Below, piece by piece: positions 15,923-48,766 of a DNA stretch of 64,000 nt; the first letter of the stretch is position 1, and every line of letters begins with the position of its first letter. The stretch spans positions 2,146 through 66,145 of the forward strand of contig JBDRZD010000001.1 in assembly GCA_039803745.1 (NCBI GenBank). The letters are read 5' to 3'. Under the pieces are notes generated by a model, which saw only the letters and a list, made by a program, of their open reading frames with translations, did no database searches and had not been told where the DNA came from. The stretch is from a candidate division WOR-3 bacterium (GTDB lineage: Bacteria > Hydrothermota > Hydrothermia > Hydrothermales > Hydrothermaceae). Position numbers and translations under genes: made by a program.

Positions 15923-15994
15923 AGGCGGCGCCCGGAATCGAACCGAGGTAAGCGGTTTTGCAAACCGCTGCCTGAGCCACTCGGCCACGCCGCC
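15923..15994 (-). tRNA. tRNA-Cys (anticodon GCA); no encoded CCA
   Basis: Reverse complement: GGCGGCGTGGCCGAGTGGCTCAGGCAGCGGTTTGCAAAACCGCTTACCTCGGTTCGATTCCGGGCGCCGCC(T). It has a 7-bp acceptor stem, a GCGGT/ACCGC anticodon stem with loop TTGCAAA, a TTCGATT T-loop and a U discriminator. This is the only GC-rich island in its neighbourhood. Confidence 0.8.
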
Positions 15995-40931: not shown

Positions 40932-40951
40932 ATGTTGCAAAAATGCAACAT
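40932..40951 (+). terminator. Possible intrinsic-terminator hairpin after the amidase gene
   Basis: atgttgca-aaaa-tgcaacat is an 8-bp perfect inverted repeat with a 4-nt loop, followed by attaattttatttttt. It is AT-rich, so the stem is weak. Confidence 0.25.
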
Positions 40952-41027
40952 ATTAATTTTATTTTTTAAAAATATTAATAAAATCAAAATAGGTATTTAT
41001 TTTTCATAATAATAAAGGGGGTGTAAA

Positions 41028-43370
41028 ATGAGAAGGGTAAGGCTTAGGTTACCTGAAAATTATATTCCGGTCTTTAAAAGAGCAAAGAAAGAGTTGATGC
41101 AAACTACATCAAAAGTAATATATATTTACTCACCCCCTGCTTATGGTAAAACCACAACACTTTTAAAATTCTTTGAAGATACAGATTTTAACCCTATATT
41201 TATTCAGGTTGAGGATAAGGATAAGGATTTTGATATGTTCAAAATTTCACTTCTTCAAATCCTCTCCGAATTTTCAGGAACCTTAAAGGAAACAATTTCT
41301 TTAATAAATGGTAAGGAAACCCCTAAACTTTTCTGGGAAATTTTAAAGAATGAATACAATAATATTGCTTTACCTGAAAATACCTATTTTGTTTTTCTTG
41401 ATACTTATCATTTAATGGAAAATTTTGGGAAAATAATTAAAGAGATAATTTTACCTCTCTTTAAAAATTTACCTGCAAAACTGATTATTGAAGCAAATTT
41501 ACCCTATGAATTTGAAGGGGATGTGAAAATAATGGGTGAAGAATTTTTTACTTTATCCTGTGAAGAAATAATTGATTTATCCTCTCTTTTTGGTGAAAAA
41601 ATTAGTCCTAAAGATGCTTTTTTATTAAGGGAAAGGACAGAGGGCTGGTTATTGCCATGCATATTGTTTTTTAGAGATAAAAGAGATGTAAAAACAAAAC
41701 TTGATAGTCTTTTAGAATGGCCCGAGCTTTTAGAAGGACTTCTTGAGGGGGTTTTTAAAGATTTAGAAGAGGAGGAGAAAATAAATCTCCTTACTCTTGG
41801 ACAATTAAGAGAGTTTAATTATGGAGCGGTAAAATGGATATTAGGATATGAAAATCCTGAGAGAATAATAAATAAAATAAAGGAAAGGGGTTTTACCCTT
41901 ATTGAAGAAATTAAAGAAGGAATAATTGTTTTTCGCTTTCACCGCCTATTAAAATCCTATTTTGAAAGAAGACTTAAAAAATTTCCTCTTGGATATGATC
42001 TTTTCTTTAGAATTCATATACGTGCTCTTGATTATTTTGAAAGTATAGGAGATTTTGAGAATGCTCTTTATCATTCAATAAAAATGAGAGACCCTACAAG
42101 ATGTGGAAAATATTTAAAAAGTATAGTGATTGATCTTTTTAATGAAGGGAAAATTTCTGCAATAGAAAGTTTCTTAAAAGAAATAGAAAATGAAGGGATA
42201 TTAAAAACCCCTGAAATTTTGCTATGTGAAGGTATCTATTTAAACCTTATTGAGAAATATGATGAATCAGTTAAATTACTTAAAAAGATTTTGGAGAGTT
42301 TAAAAGAAGAGGATTATTTACTTGGTAAATACTTTCTTTTAATAGGAAGAGAGTATTTAAATGAAAAGGAGGATATCTTAATAGAAGAAGGAAATAGATT
42401 GATTGAAGAAGTAAAGAAGTATGAAGAAAAGCACGTGATGGAGCCGGATTTTGAAAAAGATCCCTGGAGAATTGTAAAAAGGAAAACTTTTAAATCCCCC
42501 GATTATTTTGTTTCTTTAATGTATGGTAGAATTTACAATTTTTTAGGTAATCAATATTATTCAAAAAAAGATATTGAAAGAGCAAGGGAATTTTATCAAA
42601 AAAGTTTATCTTTTTTAAAGAAGATAAAAGATGATAGAAGAATTCTAACTGTTATTCATAACATAGGGCTCACTTTTCTTTTTGAAGGTAAAAAGGAAGC
42701 AATTGAATATTTTATGGATGTTGCAAATTATCCTGTTCTTTTCCCCGGGAAGGCAGCATCTTTAAATAACATTGGAATATGGTATGAGATTTTTGAAGGA
42801 GATTTAGATAAAGCAGAAGAGTATTATAAAAAGGCTTTTGAGGTTAATGAAAAATTTAAACAAAGGCAGGCAATAATTTCTCAGGTTTCAAATTTAATGT
42901 ACCTTTATTTAAAGAAAAAAGATAAGGAAAAAGTACTCCAATATCTTGAAAAACTTGAAAATCTTGTATTTGCTACTAAAAATGAAAGACTCATAAATGG
43001 TTTTTATATGGGGAAAACAGAAATTTTTACCCATCTCTGCGAGTTAGAAGAGGCAGAAAAGGCTTTAAAAGAGGTAAAAGAATCTGTTACTTTAAAATTT
43101 GAGGAGCAAAAATATTACAAAATGTATGTTGAGGGAAAGTTAAGATATTTAAAAGGTGATGTTTCTGAAGCGAAGAATTTGATAGATAAATCTATTGAAT
43201 GGACATTTTTAAAAAGCGATTTTACAGATAAAATTGACAAACTTTATTATTTATATGAAATTTATAAAAAATTTGATGACCCTGATATTCAAAAAATTAG
43301 AAAGATGGCAGAAGATCTTATAAGAGAAAAAGGCTGTTTGAAAAGGTTAAGGGATTTTGATTTAGAATAA
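41028..43370 (+). CDS. MalT-like STAND NTPase with a C-terminal TPR/SUPR-like helical repeat region; no HTH or other effector domain detected
   Basis: 780 aa with a GGGGG RBS 6 nt upstream. The N-terminus is collinear with MalT: RLRLPENYIPVFKRAKKEL...VIYIYSPPAYGKTTTL (Walker A) ... FIQVEDKDKDFDMF ... YFVFLDTYHLMEN (MalT-type Walker B hhhhDxYHL). Long amphipathic helical repeats follow (GDAY..G, EAEKAL, YYKKAFEV...). It ends ...KGCLKRLRDFDLE with no LuxR-type helix-turn-helix. Confidence 0.6.
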   Translation: MRRVRLRLPENYIPVFKRAKKELMQTTSKVIYIYSPPAYGKTTTLLKFFEDTDFNPIFIQVEDKDKDFDMFKISLLQILSEFSGTLKETISLINGKETPKLFWEILKNEYNNIALPENTYFVFLDTYHLMENFGKIIKEIILPLFKNLPAKLIIEANLPYEFEGDVKIMGEEFFTLSCEEIIDLSSLFGEKISPKDAFLLRERTEGWLLPCILFFRDKRDVKTKLDSLLEWPELLEGLLEGVFKDLEEEEKINLLTLGQLREFNYGAVKWILGYENPERIINKIKERGFTLIEEIKEGIIVFRFHRLLKSYFERRLKKFPLGYDLFFRIHIRALDYFESIGDFENALYHSIKMRDPTRCGKYLKSIVIDLFNEGKISAIESFLKEIENEGILKTPEILLCEGIYLNLIEKYDESVKLLKKILESLKEEDYLLGKYFLLIGREYLNEKEDILIEEGNRLIEEVKKYEEKHVMEPDFEKDPWRIVKRKTFKSPDYFVSLMYGRIYNFLGNQYYSKKDIERAREFYQKSLSFLKKIKDDRRILTVIHNIGLTFLFEGKKEAIEYFMDVANYPVLFPGKAASLNNIGIWYEIFEGDLDKAEEYYKKAFEVNEKFKQRQAIISQVSNLMYLYLKKKDKEKVLQYLEKLENLVFATKNERLINGFYMGKTEIFTHLCELEEAEKALKEVKESVTLKFEEQKYYKMYVEGKLRYLKGDVSEAKNLIDKSIEWTFLKSDFTDKIDKLYYLYEIYKKFDDPDIQKIRKMAEDLIREKGCLKRLRDFDLE

Positions 43371-43377
43371 AAATCTT

Positions 43378-44046
43378 ATGTTAATTTATCTCTTGATATC
43401 ATTGAAAGCATTAATTTTTTGTAAAGGAGAATTTTTCATTTTTGATTCCGAGAAAAATTATTTAAAAACTCAAAATAAAAAAATATTTCTTGAAGAAAAT
43501 TTTTACAATGCCTATGAAATAAAATCCGATTTTGTTTGGATTTATATTCTCTCAAAAGAAGGGCTTTATGTGATAAACCCTGTTGATGGTAAAATTTTAT
43601 CTTTTTATAAATTTAAAAAAAATTATTCAAAATTTGCAAAAGATGACAAAGGTAATTTTTATTTTCTTGATAGTGTATCAGGGAAAATCAAGGTTATAAA
43701 CTTTACAAGAAAGGATTCTTTTTATCTTGATTTTTCTCCTTCTAAAAATGTCCTGTCCATGGAATTTATAAATGATAAGTTATATTTTCTTTATCATGAC
43801 GAAATTGTTTCTTTTGATGTTTTTGAAAAAAAAGTTCAAAAAGAAGAAAAAGGTAAATGGGATGGATTTAGAAAATGTATTCGCAAATTATTCTTATGGA
43901 AAGAAAACTGTATAAAGATTAAAAATGGTGAAGAAACTATCTTTTGTATAAACTTTAAAATAGATGACCTGATTTTTTTAAAAGATACTATTTTTATACT
44001 AACTTCTGATTCAATTCTAAAATTACCCTTTAAGGAAAATAAATGA
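43378..44046 (+). CDS. Hypothetical exported protein
   Basis: 222 aa with an N-terminal signal peptide and beta-rich composition. Its start is 8 nt after the STAND gene's stop. Confidence 0.4.
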   Translation: MLIYLLISLKALIFCKGEFFIFDSEKNYLKTQNKKIFLEENFYNAYEIKSDFVWIYILSKEGLYVINPVDGKILSFYKFKKNYSKFAKDDKGNFYFLDSVSGKIKVINFTRKDSFYLDFSPSKNVLSMEFINDKLYFLYHDEIVSFDVFEKKVQKEEKGKWDGFRKCIRKLFLWKENCIKIKNGEETIFCINFKIDDLIFLKDTIFILTSDSILKLPFKENK

Positions 44047-46994
44047 AGTTTTTATTTTTTATTCTCATTTCAAAAATAATAAGAGATACAATCTTACCAG
44101 AAATATCTTTTATAATTTTAAAAACACCTGTTATAAATAGTATTAAGGTTTATTCAAAGAAAAATATTGAATATCAGGTTAAAGGTGATACACTTTTTTT
44201 GAAGGGATTTTATGAAAGTGACACAGTTTATGTTGAATATGAAAATATAGAAATTGATGCGGTTTATAAAAAAAACGAAATTTTATTGAAAGAAGAAGAG
44301 AAGATTTTAATAAAACCTGTTGAAAGCAAAAAAGAATTTGAGGAGATTAAATTAAAGGGTAATAAAGAGGTTGGTTTTAAAATAGAAGAGGGTAATTTTT
44401 CACTTGTTCAAAGTACAAATCTTAAACTGGATGGTAAAATAGGGAATAATATTGAAGTTGAGGGTGTTTTTCAAGATGAGAACTTACCTTCAGAAGGAAC
44501 AGTCTCTCTTTCAGAGCTCGAGCAGGCTTATTTTAATATTAAATCTCCTTATTTTAAAACAAAAATCGGTGATTTCTTTCTTAGAGGAGAAAACATTGAG
44601 AGAAAAATGCTTGGAATGGAAGCCGAAGGTAAAACAAAAGGTTTTTTTTTAAAAATAGGAACAGGTTATGGAAAGGGAACATTTGAAAGTATAAAAATAG
44701 ATGTAGTTCCGGGGAAAAATGGACCTTATTTTTTAGGAATTCAAAGATATGAAAGGATAGTTCCCGGCTCTGAAAAGGTATATCTTGATAATAAACTCTT
44801 AAAAAGTGGAAAGGATGAAGATTATATAATTGATTATGAAAGGGGAATAATAGTTTTTAATCCAAAAGTGAATATTTCAAATACTTCAAATTTAAAAATA
44901 GATTTTGAAAAAATCGAAGGCGGTTTTGATAAGTATTATTTTTCAGAATGCTTTTCTCCAAATTTTAAAAATTTTAATTTAAATTTTAATTATTTTTTAG
45001 AGAAGGATTTTGAAAAGAACCCCCTTTTCTCTTTATCCGATAGTGATAAGATATTTTTAAAAACCATAGGTGATACACAAAAAATTTTATACACAAAAGG
45101 ATATGAATATGTAGGTGAAGGAAAAGGTGATTATATAAAAAAAGGGGATACACTTATATATGTAGGAGAAAAAAATGGAAATTATGTTGCTCAATTTATC
45201 TTTGTTGGTGAAAATAAAGGAGATTATATATTCAACGATTTAAAGGGCTGTTTTGAATATGTTGGAAAAGATAAAGGAGATTATATTCCCCGGAAGATTC
45301 TCTATTTACCACAAAGGAAAAATTTTTTCTCTTCTTCCATTTCCTTTAAACAGCAGAAAATAGAATTTTTTCTTTCTGAATTTGATAAGAACATTTATTC
45401 AAACTTAAATGATAGGGATAATGTTGATTTTGGAATTAAGACAAAAAATAAATTTTATTACAAAGAAAATAACTATGAAAGTGGAGTAAATTTATCTCTA
45501 AAATATTTTGGTAAAAACCTTTTTTTCCCTTTTAGAGAAAAGGAAGCAAATTATGAATTCTTGTGGAAGACAAAAGCAGAAGAAAGAAAAAGGGTTTTAC
45601 TTTCCCCTTATTTTATTTATAAAGATATCTTTAAATTACAAAATGAGATTGGATATTTAAGCACAGATTCAGGAAGTGTTAAGAGAGAAAGTTATGAATT
45701 TGAATTTTTAAAATATTTTAATACAAAAGAAACTTATGAGGAAATAAAGGGAAAAGAAAGGACATACAGGAACAGTTTTTTGATATCAAAAAAAATGAAT
45801 AAATATTTTGTGGAGTTCAAAAACATTTTTGAGAATTCAAATTTTAATTCTCTTTCAAAAGAAATTTCTTTTGGACATGATAATTTATTTTTTACCTTTT
45901 CAGAAAATTCGCTTTTTAAAAATCTATATATCCTCTCAAATTCAATAAATACTCTTTTAAGTTTTAAAAGCGTATTTTCTATAAGAGGAACTTTTAAATA
46001 CATATTTTCTAAACCTTACCTAAAAAAAATTAATAAGGATTATTTCTACAATTTTTTTTATAATCTTTTTCCTTATAAGGATTTAAGAATCAGTATAAAT
46101 GTAATTAAAAATCCGGAAATTGTTTCAGAAAAAAATATAGAATATATATTTGTTGGAGAAGGAAAAGGGAATTTCTCTTATGACTCTCTTACAAAAAGTT
46201 TTTATCCCGATGAAAACGGGAGTTATATAAAAAGAGAATTTTTTATTACAAAAGATGATAATGGCTATAAAAAAGGAATTTATTCAAAGTTAGAATTCTC
46301 GAAAGATATTTACTCAATTTTTTTAACACAGGATAGAGAGGAAAAGAAATTAAAAGAAAAAATTCTTTCAAGGAATGAAAATTATTCTCTTAATTTAAAT
46401 TTTGACCTTCCAATTTATACAAGTTTATATACTATTTATTCACAAGATGAAGATAAAGAATATTATCTTTATCCATTTAAAAGGCTTTCTTTTGAATGGA
46501 ATATAAATTTGAGGAGAGAACTCAAAGAATTTACTCCTGAAGCAGGATTTACTTATAAGTTTTCAGAGGATAAGGAACAGGAAAATGTTAAGGCAAGAAC
46601 AAGGGAATACAAATTTTTAACAGGGATAAGAAAAGGCTTTGAAAAGATTAATTTAAGGTTTTCCTTTAATTATGGAATTCAAAGAAATGAATCCCCTTTT
46701 TATTTTGGAACAAAAATAATGAAGAAGGATTATTTTGAACTTTTGCCGGGCATAAATTTTTTTATTTTTGGTACAGAAATAAGAGAAGAGATCTTTCTTA
46801 TTTTTCAAAATGTTAAAAATCCCTTTTCAAATATTTCTTTTTATGAAAAAGAAAAATGGAGGGTAGAGGAAAAGGTATCTTTATTAAAAAAAATAAGAGA
46901 GAACCTTGAAACAAGTCTTTCTTTTTTCTTAAAAATAGGGGAAAAAACAAAGACAAAGAGTTCTTTTAATTTTAATTTTATTGCCTATTTTTAA
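44043..46994 (+). CDS. Large exported repeat protein, probable outer-membrane beta-barrel
   Basis: 983 aa. Signal peptide. Four tandem ~17-aa repeats built on YVGEGKGDYI (YEYVGEGKGDYIKKGDTL / IYVGEKNGNYVAQFIF / VGENKGDYIFNDLKGCFE / YVGKDKGDYIP), with a further copy IFVGEGKGNFSY. The C-terminus is ...SFNFNFIAYF (aromatic-x-aromatic with terminal Phe). It overlaps the upstream ORF by 4 nt. Confidence 0.4.
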   Translation: MKFLFFILISKIIRDTILPEISFIILKTPVINSIKVYSKKNIEYQVKGDTLFLKGFYESDTVYVEYENIEIDAVYKKNEILLKEEEKILIKPVESKKEFEEIKLKGNKEVGFKIEEGNFSLVQSTNLKLDGKIGNNIEVEGVFQDENLPSEGTVSLSELEQAYFNIKSPYFKTKIGDFFLRGENIERKMLGMEAEGKTKGFFLKIGTGYGKGTFESIKIDVVPGKNGPYFLGIQRYERIVPGSEKVYLDNKLLKSGKDEDYIIDYERGIIVFNPKVNISNTSNLKIDFEKIEGGFDKYYFSECFSPNFKNFNLNFNYFLEKDFEKNPLFSLSDSDKIFLKTIGDTQKILYTKGYEYVGEGKGDYIKKGDTLIYVGEKNGNYVAQFIFVGENKGDYIFNDLKGCFEYVGKDKGDYIPRKILYLPQRKNFFSSSISFKQQKIEFFLSEFDKNIYSNLNDRDNVDFGIKTKNKFYYKENNYESGVNLSLKYFGKNLFFPFREKEANYEFLWKTKAEERKRVLLSPYFIYKDIFKLQNEIGYLSTDSGSVKRESYEFEFLKYFNTKETYEEIKGKERTYRNSFLISKKMNKYFVEFKNIFENSNFNSLSKEISFGHDNLFFTFSENSLFKNLYILSNSINTLLSFKSVFSIRGTFKYIFSKPYLKKINKDYFYNFFYNLFPYKDLRISINVIKNPEIVSEKNIEYIFVGEGKGNFSYDSLTKSFYPDENGSYIKREFFITKDDNGYKKGIYSKLEFSKDIYSIFLTQDREEKKLKEKILSRNENYSLNLNFDLPIYTSLYTIYSQDEDKEYYLYPFKRLSFEWNINLRRELKEFTPEAGFTYKFSEDKEQENVKARTREYKFLTGIRKGFEKINLRFSFNYGIQRNESPFYFGTKIMKKDYFELLPGINFFIFGTEIREEIFLIFQNVKNPFSNISFYEKEKWRVEEKVSLLKKIRENLETSLSFFLKIGEKTKTKSSFNFNFIAYF

Positions 46995-47053: not shown

Positions 47054-47536
47054 ATGGATAAAAGAATTGTAGAAAAAGTTTTTAATGAATATAGAAATGT
47101 TTTACTTTTCTTTGTAAATAGTTTTTTAAGGGATAAAGATAAAAGTCAGGATATTGTTCAAGAAGTTTTTATGAGACTTTATAAGGAAAAAAATGAAATA
47201 TATAATTTAAAAGGGTGGCTATTTAAAGTTGCAAAAAATTTAGTGATTGATGATCTAAGGAGGAATAAAAGGTTTGTATATTTAGATGAGGAGACTGAAA
47301 TAGAGGATGAGAATGAGAATTTAAAAAGGAATCGTTTGAAAAGTATATTAAAAAGAGAGGTAGAAAATTTGCCCAAAATTTATAAAGATTTCTTTATTCT
47401 AAGAGATGTTGAGGGATATTCCTATGAAGAAATTGCAAGAAAATTTAAAGTTCCTCTTGGGACAGTTAAAACAAGGGTTTTTAGAGCAAGAATTTATTTG
47501 AGGGAGAAGTTAAAAAATGAATTGCGAAAGATATAA
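47054..47536 (+). CDS. ECF (group IV) sigma-70 factor
   Basis: 160 aa. Region 2 (DIVQEVFMRLYKEK...WLFKVAKNLVIDDLRR) and region 4 (ILRDVEGYSYEEIARKFKVPLGTVKTRVFRAR). Confidence 0.85.
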   Translation: MDKRIVEKVFNEYRNVLLFFVNSFLRDKDKSQDIVQEVFMRLYKEKNEIYNLKGWLFKVAKNLVIDDLRRNKRFVYLDEETEIEDENENLKRNRLKSILKREVENLPKIYKDFFILRDVEGYSYEEIARKFKVPLGTVKTRVFRARIYLREKLKNELRKI

Positions 47537-47873
47537 AATTCTTATAAATAAATATATTGATAATGAGATAAAAAAAGAGGAAATGGAAAAGTTGCTTTCT
47601 CATCTTGATATCTGTGAAGATTGTAAAATATTTTTGTATGATTTGAAAAAACTTGAAGAAATGAGCATTTCTTTATTTGATTGTAAAAAAAACAAAAAAG
47701 ATTACAGAATTTTTATAAAAATATTTTTGATTTTATTTATTGTCTTTTCTTTTAAATCTTTTCCTTTATTTTTTAAAAATAAAAAAGATGAAAATAAGAT
47801 TGTTAGAGAAGAAAAGGCTAAGAAGGTTTATCTTGTAGATTTTGAGTTTAAAGAAGATTTAATTTTAAAATGA
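47517..47873 (+). CDS. Zinc-binding (zf-HC2 / ZAS-type) anti-sigma factor with one TM helix
   Basis: 118 aa: HLDICEDC (HxxxCxxC) near the N-terminus and the TM segment IFIKIFLILFIVFSF. Overlaps the ECF sigma gene by 20 nt. Confidence 0.65.
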   Translation: MNCERYKILINKYIDNEIKKEEMEKLLSHLDICEDCKIFLYDLKKLEEMSISLFDCKKNKKDYRIFIKIFLILFIVFSFKSFPLFFKNKKDENKIVREEKAKKVYLVDFEFKEDLILK

Positions 47874-48766
47874 AATTACTTTTAATTCTAACAATTACAC
47901 AATCCATTCTTTTAAAAATTCAGGAAGAAATTAAAGAAACATATAAAAAGGTTTTACCAAATGTAGTAAGAGTAGAGATAGAAAATAAAATGGGAACCGG
48001 AATTATATATGATACAATAGGTACAGTTGTTACTTCTTTACCATTTCCTCTGACAAATGAATGTGATATAATAAATTTTAAAGGAGAGATTTCTTCAGGG
48101 GAACTTTTCTATTGGGACGATATAACCCATATTGCGTTTTTGAAATCAAATTTTAATGCAAAAGAAATTGAAAAGAAAAAAAATATAGAAGTCGGGGATC
48201 TGGTTCTCATAGTAAACAATAGTTTAGATTCTGAAAGTGCTCTTTTCTGGAGTATTGTCTCAAATAAAAGAAACAAAAGGATTTACTTACAGGGGAGTCC
48301 TTCAATACCATTAACTGGTTCACCAGTATTCAGTATTGATGGTAAATTTATAGGAGTTGTTAAAGGAGAAGTTGTAGAATTTGAAAGTGAGAAATTCCCT
48401 TTTATTTTTCAAAAAAATTATAATATCATTTCAGTGACTCTCTGGGAGGAAATAGAAGAGATTAAGAAAAGGATTGGAAAAGAATTTAAAATCCCTGGTT
48501 GGATTGGAATATTGATAAAGGATGAAGGAGGTAATGTAATAATAAAAAAGGTGTTGAAGGGCTCACCTGCAGAAAAAGCAGATATTAAACCGGGTGATAT
48601 GATTCTGGAAATTGAAAGAGAAGAGATAAAGAATGTAAAAGACCTTGTTGAGAAGATGAGATTTTTTTCTCCGGGAGAAAAAATTGAAATAAAATTAAAA
48701 AGAAAAAATAAAATAGAGGTTAAAAAAGTTAAACTTGATAGAATTCCCTCTTTTATGGTATATTAA
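47870..48766 (+). CDS. DegS/HtrA-like protein: trypsin-like domain (possibly degenerate) + PDZ domain
   Basis: 298 aa with a signal peptide/TM. GSPSIPLTGSPVFSIDGKFIGVV resembles the GNSGGPL..G.VIGI serine region. A C-terminal PDZ domain follows (GWIGILIKDEGGNVIIKKVLKGSPAEKADIKPGDMILEIE). The catalytic His/Asp context is atypical. Confidence 0.5.
   Translation: MKLLLILTITQSILLKIQEEIKETYKKVLPNVVRVEIENKMGTGIIYDTIGTVVTSLPFPLTNECDIINFKGEISSGELFYWDDITHIAFLKSNFNAKEIEKKKNIEVGDLVLIVNNSLDSESALFWSIVSNKRNKRIYLQGSPSIPLTGSPVFSIDGKFIGVVKGEVVEFESEKFPFIFQKNYNIISVTLWEEIEEIKKRIGKEFKIPGWIGILIKDEGGNVIIKKVLKGSPAEKADIKPGDMILEIEREEIKNVKDLVEKMRFFSPGEKIEIKLKRKNKIEVKKVKLDRIPSFMVY

What the first reader, a model, noticed from the sequence alone, without database searches (positions are those of the whole stretch)
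41028..43370. MalT-like STAND NTPase with a TPR/SUPR sensor region but no DNA-binding or effector domain
The first 200 aa are collinear with the MalT N-terminus, including the SPPAYGKTTTL Walker A and the MalT-specific hhhhDxYHL Walker B. About 550 aa of helical repeats follow. The protein ends without the LuxR HTH that defines MalT-type regulators, and there is no N-terminal effector either. STAND ATPases with repeat sensors act as ligand- or phage-triggered switches (MalT, Avs and NLR-like antiviral proteins). An output-less one implies that signalling goes through partner proteins, and the co-directional, tightly linked downstream genes are candidates.
Basis: partly seen in the sequence, partly recalled or inferred. 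Interest (0 to 1): 0.6.

Follow-up and report, generated by a model that had tools for sequence, protein, structure and literature searches.

The report
MalT-like switch protein without output domain
This is an intact, strongly conserved gene of a small group of uncultured heat-loving bacteria (candidate division WOR-3) that encodes a MalT-type molecular switch with no DNA-binding end and without two residues MalT needs to burn ATP and self-assemble, so it probably works by binding other proteins that are not encoded next to it.

Summary

No LuxR helix-turn-helix exists, cryptic or separate. It is not a pseudogene: 16 homologues are 761-785 aa and dN/dS is 0.089.

The partner idea fails.
- The ECF sigma cassette is an indel, absent from the closest relative.
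- The downstream pair is an independent exported module built around a large outer-membrane beta-barrel. It occurs without the STAND gene in other lineages.
- The STAND gene sits in three different contexts.

New here: the family replaces MalT D129 (T/F/A) and R171 (A/G). These are conserved in over 90% of relatives, and R171 is needed for MalT hydrolysis and multimerisation.

It evolves like its housekeeping neighbours and matches no defence model. Most likely it is a nucleotide-binding, hydrolysis-impaired TPR adaptor with unlinked partners. Output-less MalT-like proteins and inactive STANDs are both already known, so this is a new variant of a known kind, of moderate interest.

The parts
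41028..43370 (+). Complete STAND ORF, 780 aa (NBD, HD, WHD, arm, TPR sensor), with no output domain
41028..41537 (+). Nucleotide-binding domain (aa 1-170), including the N-terminal L0-type segment with invariant P9 and Y12
   Evidence: alignment to MalT; AF2 strand/helix pattern; invariant columns
41130..41156 (+). Walker A / P-loop, S35-P-P-A-Y-G-K-T-T43. G40 and K41 are invariant in 147 relatives
41388..41405 (+). Walker B, F121-V-F-L-D125-T126. D125 equals MalT D128. T126 replaces MalT D129, and this position is T/F/A across the family
41484..41504 (+). I153-I-E-A-N-L-P159, aligned to MalT V-L-S-R171-N-L-P. The arginine is replaced by A156 (A/G in the family), next to the invariant E155
   Evidence: role of R171 from PMC6468293 and PMC10427625
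41538..41987 (+). Helical domain (aa 171-245, with T204-E-G206-W207) and winged-helix domain (aa 246-320, with F304-H305, the nucleotide-contacting His motif)
41988..42362 (+). Arm (aa 321-445), made of TPR-like helical hairpins. It is the most constrained part (dN/dS 0.025 against L009)
42432..42497 (+). Linker loop (aa 469-490). It is predicted disordered (pLDDT <50 at 474-488) yet carries the nearly invariant motif PDFEKDPWRIVKRK
42498..43337 (+). TPR/SUPR sensor (aa 491-770), about seven hairpins. The closest solved fold is the MalT sensor domain III
43338..43367 (+). Conserved C-terminal tail, ...LKRLRDFDLE-COOH (R773 L774 D776 F777 D778 nearly invariant). At 81% mean pairwise identity it is the most conserved segment
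40933..40950 (+). Perfect palindrome TGTTGCA-N4-TGCAACA between the amidase and STAND genes. It is either the terminator of the upstream unit or an operator. It belongs to this locus and does not travel with the STAND gene
40991..41023 (+). Putative expression signals: a -24/-12-like element AGGTAT-N5-TTTCAT (40991-41007) and the Shine-Dalgarno sequence AAAGGGGGTG (41014-41023)
   Evidence: These are inferred and not tested

Best explanation
The gene encodes an intact, lineage-restricted member of the MalT clade of STAND proteins. It has been found only in a small thermophilic WOR-3 / 'Hydrothermus' group. It corresponds to MalT domains 1-3 (nucleotide-binding oligomerisation domain, arm, TPR sensor) without domain 4, the LuxR DNA-binding domain.

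Shown:
- The fold, the domain order and the absence of any output domain.
- Retention of the nucleotide-binding residues: P-loop GKT, first Walker B Asp, TEGW, and the winged-helix His.
- Loss of the second Walker B acid (MalT D129) and of the MalT R171 arginine.
- Strong purifying selection over the whole length.
- No conserved gene neighbour.

Inferred:
- The protein still binds an adenine nucleotide but hydrolyses it poorly or not at all.
- It is unlikely to form MalT-type head-to-tail multimers.
- It therefore acts less as a fast on/off switch and more as a nucleotide-loaded TPR adaptor.
- Its MalT-like sensor groove, the conserved disordered PDFEKDPW loop and the invariant acidic-aromatic C-terminal tail would bind a ligand and one or more partner proteins encoded elsewhere. 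The output would be sequestration or recruitment of that partner.
- The role is a conserved cellular (housekeeping-type regulatory) one and not antiviral.
For: Architecture:
- AF2 model, pLDDT 90.5, pTM 0.79.
- Foldseek: PH0952 STAND-TPR 6mfv_A E 6.7e-13, MalT NOD 8bob_C E 3.4e-9.
- MalT HMM match E 2.1e-24.

No output domain:
- Pfam finds none.
- hhalign against GerE gives <1%, with a 95% positive control.
- No stand-alone GerE protein occurs in the window or in nine related loci.
- The gene stops 7 nt before a gene that is conserved independently.

The gene is functional:
- 16 homologues are 761-785 aa at 49-100% identity.
- dN/dS against L009 is 0.089: NOD 0.088, arm 0.025, sensor 0.129. 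That is the lowest of five neighbouring genes.
- Identity to relatives tracks that of the amidase and the aminotransferase.

Degenerate catalytic and assembly residues:
- T126 aligns to MalT D129 and A156 to MalT R171.
- Asp occupies the first position in 135 of 145 relatives, and Arg the second in 49 of 51.
- R171E makes MalT monomeric (PMC6468293).
- R171 is reported to mediate both hydrolysis and oligomerisation (PMC10427625).

No fixed partner gene:
- The STAND gene lies in three different contexts.
- A p222 profile finds no relative among the small ORFs next to the other family members.

Not defence-like: no PADLOC match.
Against: - No partner or ligand has been identified, so the output is inferred by elimination.
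- Loss of D129/R171 equivalents predicts impaired hydrolysis and assembly only by analogy with MalT. The family-specific invariant acids E131 and E155 lie close by in the sequence and could substitute. I could not inspect the model coordinates.
- In six of eight genomes the gene is followed after 7 nt by the 222/983-aa pair. That pair has no room for its own promoter, so some functional coupling with it is not excluded.
- All sequences come from metagenome-assembled genomes. Copy number and presence or absence per genome are therefore uncertain.
Confidence: 0.5

Rival explanations
1. The STAND protein works with the two genes it is co-transcribed with: the 222-aa exported protein and the 983-aa outer-membrane barrel. 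For example, it could couple a cytoplasmic signal to their expression, targeting or assembly.
For: - A 7-nt gap separates STAND from p222, and p222 and p983 overlap by 4 nt.
- The trio is kept in the window, L009, L012, L005/L006, L004 and L001/L011.
- A conserved upstream region precedes the STAND gene in all of these.
Against: - The pair stays together without any STAND gene upstream in Hydrothermales (L037, L038).
- p983 homologues extend to Bacteroidota and Cloacimonadota.
- P0003 and P0006 (70% and 68% identical) have no such pair within 10 kb.
- p983 is an outer-membrane beta-barrel and p222 has a signal-peptide-like N-terminus. Both therefore sit in a different compartment from the cytoplasmic STAND protein.
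- The whole 40-kb stretch is co-directional and tightly packed.
Confidence: 0.17
2. It is an HTH-less transcription regulator. It would control a sigma factor, response regulator or other transcription factor by binding it, much as Rap proteins bind ComA or Spo0F. The neighbouring ECF sigma factor is one possible target.
For: - The nearest relatives are overwhelmingly transcription factors: GerE in 89 of 147, and C-terminal BTAD in most of the rest.
- The sensor fold resembles the Rap/NprR/AimR receptors.
- An ECF sigma factor lies 3.7 kb downstream in the window.
Against: - The ECF cassette is absent from the closest relative and from three other syntenic genomes.
- No target has been identified.
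- This rival is a special case of the best explanation, not a true alternative to it.
Confidence: 0.15
3. It is an NLR/Avs-like antiviral sensor whose effector is encoded elsewhere. A phage protein bound by the TPR domain would trigger assembly.
For: - The model matches Avs3 in Foldseek (8dgc_A, E 1.4e-7), and the STAND-plus-TPR layout is used by Avs proteins.
- The gene has moved between at least three genomic contexts.
- The same lineage holds divergent paralogous output-less families, P0017 and P0028.
Against: - No PADLOC model matches the protein or its neighbours.
- There is no effector domain.
- All flanking genes are housekeeping genes.
- The sensor is under strong purifying selection and is no more variable than the NOD.
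- The assembly arginine and the catalytic acid are missing.
Confidence: 0.06
4. It is a truncated or decaying malT gene with no function.
For: It lacks the LuxR domain and two catalytic or assembly residues.
Against: - Length is uniform at 761-785 aa in 16 homologues down to 49% identity.
- dN/dS is 0.089 while dS is about 0.7.
- The C-terminal tail is invariant.
- There is no space for a decayed HTH before the next conserved gene.
- The AF2 model is confident throughout.
Confidence: 0.02

Closest known systems
E. coli MalT and the LAL (large ATP-binding LuxR-family) regulators
   Same: - The NOD is collinear from the N-terminal L0 segment, through Walker A and Walker B-YHL and TEGW, to the winged-helix xRxH motif.
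- It has an arm and a TPR/SUPR sensor. The best structural match of the sensor is MalT domain III.
   Different: - It has no LuxR/GerE domain.
- The equivalents of D129 and R171 are replaced.
- It scores 85.6 bits against an equivalog cut-off of 537.
- Identity to relatives outside the family is about 14-27%.
- There is no maltose-system context.
PH0952 of Pyrococcus horikoshii (PDB 6MFV), a STAND protein with a TPR sensor
   Same: It is the best whole-chain Foldseek match (E 6.7e-13). It shares the NOD, arm and TPR order and the autoinhibited resting-state architecture described in PMC6468293.
   Different: [quoted passage not shown] The protein here has only 28 residues before the first NBD strand.
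Other output-less MalT-like proteins (P0036, P0043, P0051, P0052 and similar)
   Same: They have a MalT-type NOD plus TPR_MalT, no GerE or BTAD, and are about 700-850 aa. The architecture itself is therefore not unique.
   Different: They keep the canonical DD (or ED) Walker B. They are also far from this family, at E 1e-22 to 1e-24 against E 1e-127 or better within it.
Inactive STAND (iSTAND) components of MoxR-vWA ternary systems (Kaur et al. 2020, PMC7159879)
   Same: They are a precedent for catalytically degenerate STAND modules kept as signalling or scaffold parts.
   Different: - iSTANDs are defined by their linkage to MoxR and vWA genes. None occurs among the called genes within 7-10 kb of a family member.
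- This family keeps an intact P-loop.
Avs antiviral STAND proteins (for example Avs3, PDB 8DGC)
   Same: STAND core followed by a TPR-type sensor. Foldseek gives E 1.4e-7.
   Different: Avs proteins carry fused nuclease or other effector domains and are much larger. Here there is no PADLOC match, a conserved sensor, and a housekeeping context.
RRNPP peptide receptors (Rap, NprR, AimR, PlcR)
   Different: RRNPP proteins have no NOD. The resemblance is confined to the TPR fold.

Membership tests
STAND NTPase superfamily | P-loop Walker A (GxxxxGK[ST]) | tested here: met
   PPAYGKTT. G40 and K41 are invariant in 147 aligned relatives.
STAND NTPase superfamily | Walker B hhhhD followed by a second acidic residue | tested here: not met
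   D125 is present, but position 126 is T/F/A in all 17 family members. It is Asp in 135 of 145 relatives.
STAND NTPase superfamily | NBD, helical domain and winged-helix domain, with a conserved His contacting the nucleotide, followed by an arm and a repeat sensor | tested here: met
   AF2 model. Foldseek top hits are PH0952 and MalT NOD. TEGW (G206 and W207 invariant) and F304-H305 (His in 139 of 145) are present.
MalT / LAL transcription activators | C-terminal LuxR/GerE helix-turn-helix domain | tested here: not met
   No Pfam hit at E<=0.1. hhalign against a GerE profile gives <1%, with a 95% positive control. The last five helices are TPR hairpins plus a cap.
MalT / LAL transcription activators | MalT-type NOD and SUPR/TPR sensor | tested here: met
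MalT / LAL transcription activators | NCBIfam equivalog score for MalT (cut-off 537 bits) | tested here: not met
   85.6 bits.
MalT / LAL transcription activators | Arginine equivalent to MalT R171, required for hydrolysis and for the protomer-protomer interface | tested here: not met
   IIEANLP aligns to VLSRNLP, so A156 equals R171. Arg is present in 49 of 51 relatives. Function is taken from PMC6468293 and PMC10427625.
MalT / LAL transcription activators | ATP- and inducer-dependent multimerisation and promoter binding | not testable with these tools
   This needs biochemistry.
Avs / NLR-like antiviral STAND systems | Fused or adjacent effector (nuclease, SIR2, TIR, protease and similar) | tested here: not met
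   There is no extra domain. Neighbours are SmpB, an amidase, OM proteins and an aminotransferase.
Avs / NLR-like antiviral STAND systems | Match to defence-system profile HMMs | tested here: not met
   PADLOC gives only weak generic TPR hits, at E 2e-4 or worse.
Avs / NLR-like antiviral STAND systems | Protection against phage | not testable with these tools
   The lineage is uncultured, so this would need heterologous assays.
iSTAND of MoxR-vWA ternary systems | Operon linkage to MoxR AAA+ and vWA genes | tested here: not met
   No MoxR or vWA family appears among the called genes within 7-10 kb in L001-L008 and L039.

The most novel reading that the evidence does not exclude
The WOR-3/Hydrothermus lineage has turned the MalT scaffold into a family of hydrolysis-dead, non-multimerising 'pseudo-STAND' adaptors. 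This family, together with the still more degenerate paralogous families P0017 and P0027/P0028, would read out nucleotide or metabolite state and control an essential envelope or housekeeping process by protein binding alone. The invariant C-terminal RDFD[IL]E tail and the PDFEKDPW loop would act as intramolecular or partner-docking peptides for the TPR groove. That would be a new mode of STAND signalling, with neither oligomerisation nor a fused effector.
Probability: 0.15. Interest if true: 0.6.

Novelty: new variant of a known kind. Interest (0 to 1): 0.38.

Why it matters
STAND proteins are usually explained by one scheme. A ligand opens the NOD, ATP replaces ADP, the protein multimerises, and a fused effector is brought into proximity. 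Here the MalT scaffold is kept under strong selection while three of those elements are missing: the effector, the catalytic acid and the assembly arginine.

If the inference holds, the NOD-arm-TPR module can be useful without the canonical cycle. That bears on how the many 'effector-less' NLR-like proteins in genomes should be read. It also gives a defined and small set of residues for testing this (T126D and A156R reversions).

On the practical side, the result removes a tempting but wrong operon-based inference: that the ECF sigma factor or the exported pair are partners.

Tried and rejected
- **Cryptic HTH.** Pfam at E<=0.1, hhalign of the last 90 and 130 residues and of the full family against a GerE profile, and inspection of the secondary structure were all negative.
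- **Split MalT with a separate LuxR gene.** A GerE HMM run on six-frame ORFs of the window and nine loci found only the ECF sigma region 4, weakly.
- **Defence system.** PADLOC was negative for the STAND protein and three neighbours.
- **ECF module as partner.** Rejected, because the cassette is an indel.
- **Conserved small partner next to relocated family members.** A p222 profile against seven adjacent small ORFs found nothing.
- **RNA elements.** A whole-window Rfam scan found only one tRNA, at 15923-15994.
- **The palindrome as a dispersed repeat or regulon motif.** It is a single copy in the window and occurs only at the syntenic site in the loci.
- **afdb50 fold search.** The library was unavailable.
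- **Marquenet & Richet 2010 (PMC2944548).** The paper is not held. The role of D129 therefore rests on general knowledge of Walker B in ASCE/STAND ATPases, while the role of R171 is cited from PMC6468293 and PMC10427625.
- **Pfam scan of all 147 relatives.** This exceeded the size limit. It was replaced by a scan of the closest 53 plus a local GerE HMM.
Full report

Yes. The ORF at 41028-43370 (+) encodes 780 aa. It has a strong Shine-Dalgarno sequence and its own 102-nt upstream spacer. The window has about 29% G+C. The identical protein is on record from a MAG of candidate division WOR-3, annotated 'hypothetical protein'.

The similarity to MalT is significant and collinear.
- NCBIfam MalT (NF003420) aligns residues 17-428 to MalT 20-442 at E 2.1e-24. 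At 85.6 bits it is far below the equivalog cut-off of 537.
- phmmer against the solved E. coli MalT NOD (8bob_C) aligns residues 29-399 to 33-413.
- Pfam finds TPR repeats between residues 500 and 650 and a weak TPR_MalT match, but no HTH family at E<=0.1.

**2. Structure**

An AlphaFold2 model built on 17 family sequences is confident: pLDDT 90.5, pTM 0.79. Only residues 474-488 fall below 50. The domains are:

| Residues | Domain |
|---|---|
| 1-170 | alpha/beta nucleotide-binding domain |
| 171-245 | helical domain |
| 246-320 | winged helix with a beta-hairpin |
| 321-445 | arm of TPR-like hairpins |
| 446-490 | long helix and a loop |
| 491-770 | seven TPR hairpins |
| 771-777 | capping helix |

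Foldseek against the PDB ranks PH0952 first (6mfv_A, the STAND protein with a TPR sensor, E 6.7e-13). The MalT NOD follows (8bob_C, 3.4e-9), then Avs3 (1.4e-7).

The protein is therefore MalT domains 1-3 without domain 4. The helical repeats proper span about 460 aa, not 550.

**3.

(a) Cryptic HTH.
- I built a GerE profile from the C-termini of 71 LuxR-type relatives found here.
- hhalign of the family's last 90 or 130 residues, or of the full length, against that profile gives probabilities below 1%.
- The same profile recognises region 4 of the window's ECF sigma factor at 95%.
- No stand-alone GerE protein is encoded in the 64-kb window or in nine related loci.

(b) Truncated pseudogene.
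- Sixteen homologues at 49-100% identity are all 761-785 aa.
- The C-terminal tail ...LKRLRDFD[IL]E is the most conserved segment, at 81% mean pairwise identity.
- The stop codon lies 7 nt before the next gene, which is conserved on its own elsewhere.
- dN/dS against the 88%-identical orthologue is 0.089 at dS about 0.7. That is the lowest of five adjacent genes. By region it is NOD 0.088, arm 0.025 and sensor 0.129.

Neither refutation applies.

**4. Degenerate hydrolysis and assembly residues**

Nucleotide-binding features are retained: GKT; the first Walker B Asp D125; TEGW with G206 and W207 invariant in 147 relatives; and the winged-helix His305.

Two other positions have changed.
- The second Walker B acid is T126 (T/F/A across the family), where 135 of 145 relatives have Asp. 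In the direct alignment it corresponds to MalT D129.
- The motif IIEANLP aligns to MalT VLSRNLP. The arginine R171 is therefore replaced by A156 (A/G in the family), where 49 of 51 relatives have Arg.

[quoted passage not shown] MalT R171E is monomeric at all concentrations because the protomer-protomer interface is altered (PMC6468293). The second Walker B acid is generally taken as the catalytic base in this ATPase class. That rests on established knowledge, because the primary MalT paper was not available.

The nearest outgroups, P0027 and P0028 from a 'Hydrothermus' metagenome, have lost even the first Walker B Asp. The more distant family P0017 shares the D-F and EAN substitutions.

By analogy, this family should bind nucleotide but hydrolyse it poorly, and should not form MalT-type multimers. 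This is an inference. The family-specific invariant acids E131 and E155 might compensate, and I could not inspect the coordinates.

**5. How unusual is the architecture?**

I ran a NOD profile search over 1.84 billion representative proteins.
- It gives 9,723 hits at E<=1e-3 but only 9 at E<=1e-30. The family is small and isolated.
- Among the 147 sequences surveyed (the query, P0017 and the 145 best other matches), 89 carry GerE. Another 42 are 967-1890 aa, most of them about 1040-1120 aa with a C-terminal BTAD. Sixteen are shorter proteins without GerE, and some of those are fragments.
- Full-length output-less relatives exist (P0036, P0043, P0051, P0052), but they keep a canonical DD or ED Walker B.

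Catalytically inactive STANDs have been described, but as parts of MoxR-vWA ternary systems (PMC7159879). That context is absent here.

Each element is therefore known separately. The combination of a MalT scaffold, no output domain and degenerate hydrolysis and assembly residues, kept under strong selection, is what makes this a variant and not just another member.

**6. Genomic context**

The family was found in only four GTDB species representatives. All are WOR-3 or 'Candidatus Hydrothermus pacificus' MAGs. Three contexts exist.

(i) SmpB, amidase, STAND, p222, p983, aminotransferase. This occurs in the window, L009, L012, L005/L006, L004 and L001/L011.

(ii) A 267-aa protein of unknown function, STAND, glyoxalase, then convergent M16 peptidases. 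This is L002, whose STAND protein is 70% identical.

(iii) Three small genes of unknown function, STAND, ThiS-like, ScpA. This is L003/L010, at 68% identity.

The ECF sigma / zf-HC2 anti-sigma / PDZ-protease cassette (47054-48766) is present only in the window and in L001/L011. It is missing from the 88%-identical L009 and from L004 and L005/L006, where p983 is followed directly by the aminotransferase. It is an indel unrelated to the STAND gene.

The p222/p983 pair is an independent module.
- p983 has about 100 homologues reaching Hydrothermales, Cloacimonadota and Bacteroidota.
- In L037 and L038 the pair (211-214 aa plus about 1000 aa, overlapping) follows NDK and an NFACT-like gene, with no STAND gene.
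- The p983 model is almost entirely beta-strand. Its fold matches are all large outer-membrane barrels: MtrB, TbpA, BtuB, SprA and LptD. The C-terminal Phe is nearly invariant.
- p222 has a signal-peptide-like N-terminus.

These are envelope proteins, whereas the STAND protein has a charged N-terminus and a soluble all-domain model. In addition, genes are co-directional and nearly abutting from 16 to 56.5 kb. Tight linkage alone is therefore weak evidence in this genome.

Co-transcription of STAND with the pair in context (i) remains likely, because the 7-nt gap leaves no room for a promoter. It is kept as a rival explanation.

**7. Cellular gene or defence gene?**

- No PADLOC model matches.
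- All flanking genes are housekeeping genes.
- Identity to orthologues tracks that of the amidase and aminotransferase: 88/82/85% in L009, 68/71/68% in L005 and 57/58/64% in L001, listed as STAND/amidase/aminotransferase.
- The sensor is no more variable than the NOD, at mean pairwise identity 57% against 61%.

This pattern fits a conserved endogenous ligand or partner. It does not fit an arms race.

**8. Mechanism proposed**

Shown: a complete MalT-type NOD-arm-sensor protein, nucleotide-binding residues kept, D129 and R171 equivalents lost, no output domain, and no fixed neighbour.

Inferred: a nucleotide-loaded, hydrolysis-impaired adaptor. Its MalT-like sensor groove would bind a small ligand or a peptide. 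Its output would be binding of an unlinked partner protein, by sequestration or recruitment.

Two conserved segments are candidate docking or autoinhibitory peptides. One is the disordered PDFEKDPWRIVKRK loop. The other is the invariant acidic-aromatic C-terminus RDFD[IL]E.

Confidence in the identity and anatomy is about 0.9. Confidence in the adaptor mechanism is about 0.4. The overall figure given is 0.5.

**9. Verdict**

The architecture is right and the proposed partners are wrong. The analogy with a normally cycling switch or an immune sensor is doubtful.
- Novelty: a new variant of a known kind.
- Interest is moderate (0.38). It is a clean natural example of a MalT scaffold stripped of effector, catalytic acid and assembly arginine, but it has no identified function and both constituent ideas have precedents.

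Noticed in passing
window 40933-40950 (also L001 9874-9891, L004 7882-7899, L005 2444-2461, L006 641-658, L009 1962-1979, L011 9874-9891, L012 9906-9923): A perfect palindrome TGTTGCA-N4-TGCAACA lies just after the amidase stop codon. It is unique in the 64-kb window. Its stem is invariant in every syntenic genome although the proteins are only 57-88% identical and synonymous sites are near saturation; only the 4-nt loop varies. That is more sequence conservation than a terminator needs, so it may be a protein-binding site. It is absent upstream of the STAND gene in the two non-syntenic contexts.
   Followed up: partly
window 40991-41007; same position in L001, L004, L005, L009, L012: A conserved -24/-12-like element lies about 20 nt upstream of the STAND start codon. 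It reads TGGCAT-N5-TTTCAT in four genomes and AGGTAT-N5-TTTCAT in the window and L009. The GG-to-TC spacing is that of the sigma-54 consensus TGGCAC-N5-TTGCW. Whether the organism has RpoN or an enhancer-binding protein was not checked.
   Followed up: partly
window 47054-48766: The cassette of ECF sigma factor, zf-HC2 anti-sigma factor and PDZ/trypsin-like protease is a presence/absence polymorphism. It occurs in the window and in 'Ca. Hydrothermus pacificus' (L001/L011). It is absent at the same site in the 88%-identical relative L009 and in L004 and L005/L006.
   Followed up: yes
window 43378-46994: A conserved two-gene envelope module with no Pfam or NCBIfam family. It comprises a 222-aa exported protein whose gene overlaps that of a 983-aa protein. 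The larger protein is predicted to be a very large outer-membrane beta-barrel (pLDDT 77, with fold hits to MtrB, TbpA, BtuB, SprA and LptD, and a nearly invariant C-terminal Phe). p983 homologues (about 1000-1200 aa) occur in WOR-3, Hydrothermales, Cloacimonadota and Bacteroidota, and the pair stays adjacent in Hydrothermales. Function unknown.
   Followed up: partly
L039 7001-9250 (P0028) and L007 752-3142 (P0017): The same thermophilic lineage and metagenomes carry at least two further divergent output-less MalT-like families, about 26-27% identical to this one. P0027 and P0028 have lost even the first Walker B aspartate (IMNIQ / FFKIN). P0028 is followed by a 150-aa TPR protein, a 225-aa protein of unknown function and an M1 peptidase. 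This looks like a lineage-specific expansion of degenerate STAND proteins.
   Followed up: partly
window 42432-42497 (aa 469-490): This is the only low-confidence segment of the model (pLDDT <50 at residues 474-488), yet it is one of the best conserved. The motif PDFEKDPWRIVKRK is nearly invariant, and EKDP is kept even in the 27%-identical P0017. It shares a DF[DE] core with the invariant C-terminal tail RDFD[IL]E. One homologue, P0012, lacks the loop.
   Followed up: no
window ~16000 (tRNA at 15923-15994, minus strand): Gene orientation and GC skew both switch sign at about 16 kb. Genes lie on the minus strand before it and on the plus strand from 16 to 56.5 kb, and the cumulative skew reaches its minimum there. 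This could be a replication origin region or simply a divergent gene-strand boundary.
   Followed up: no
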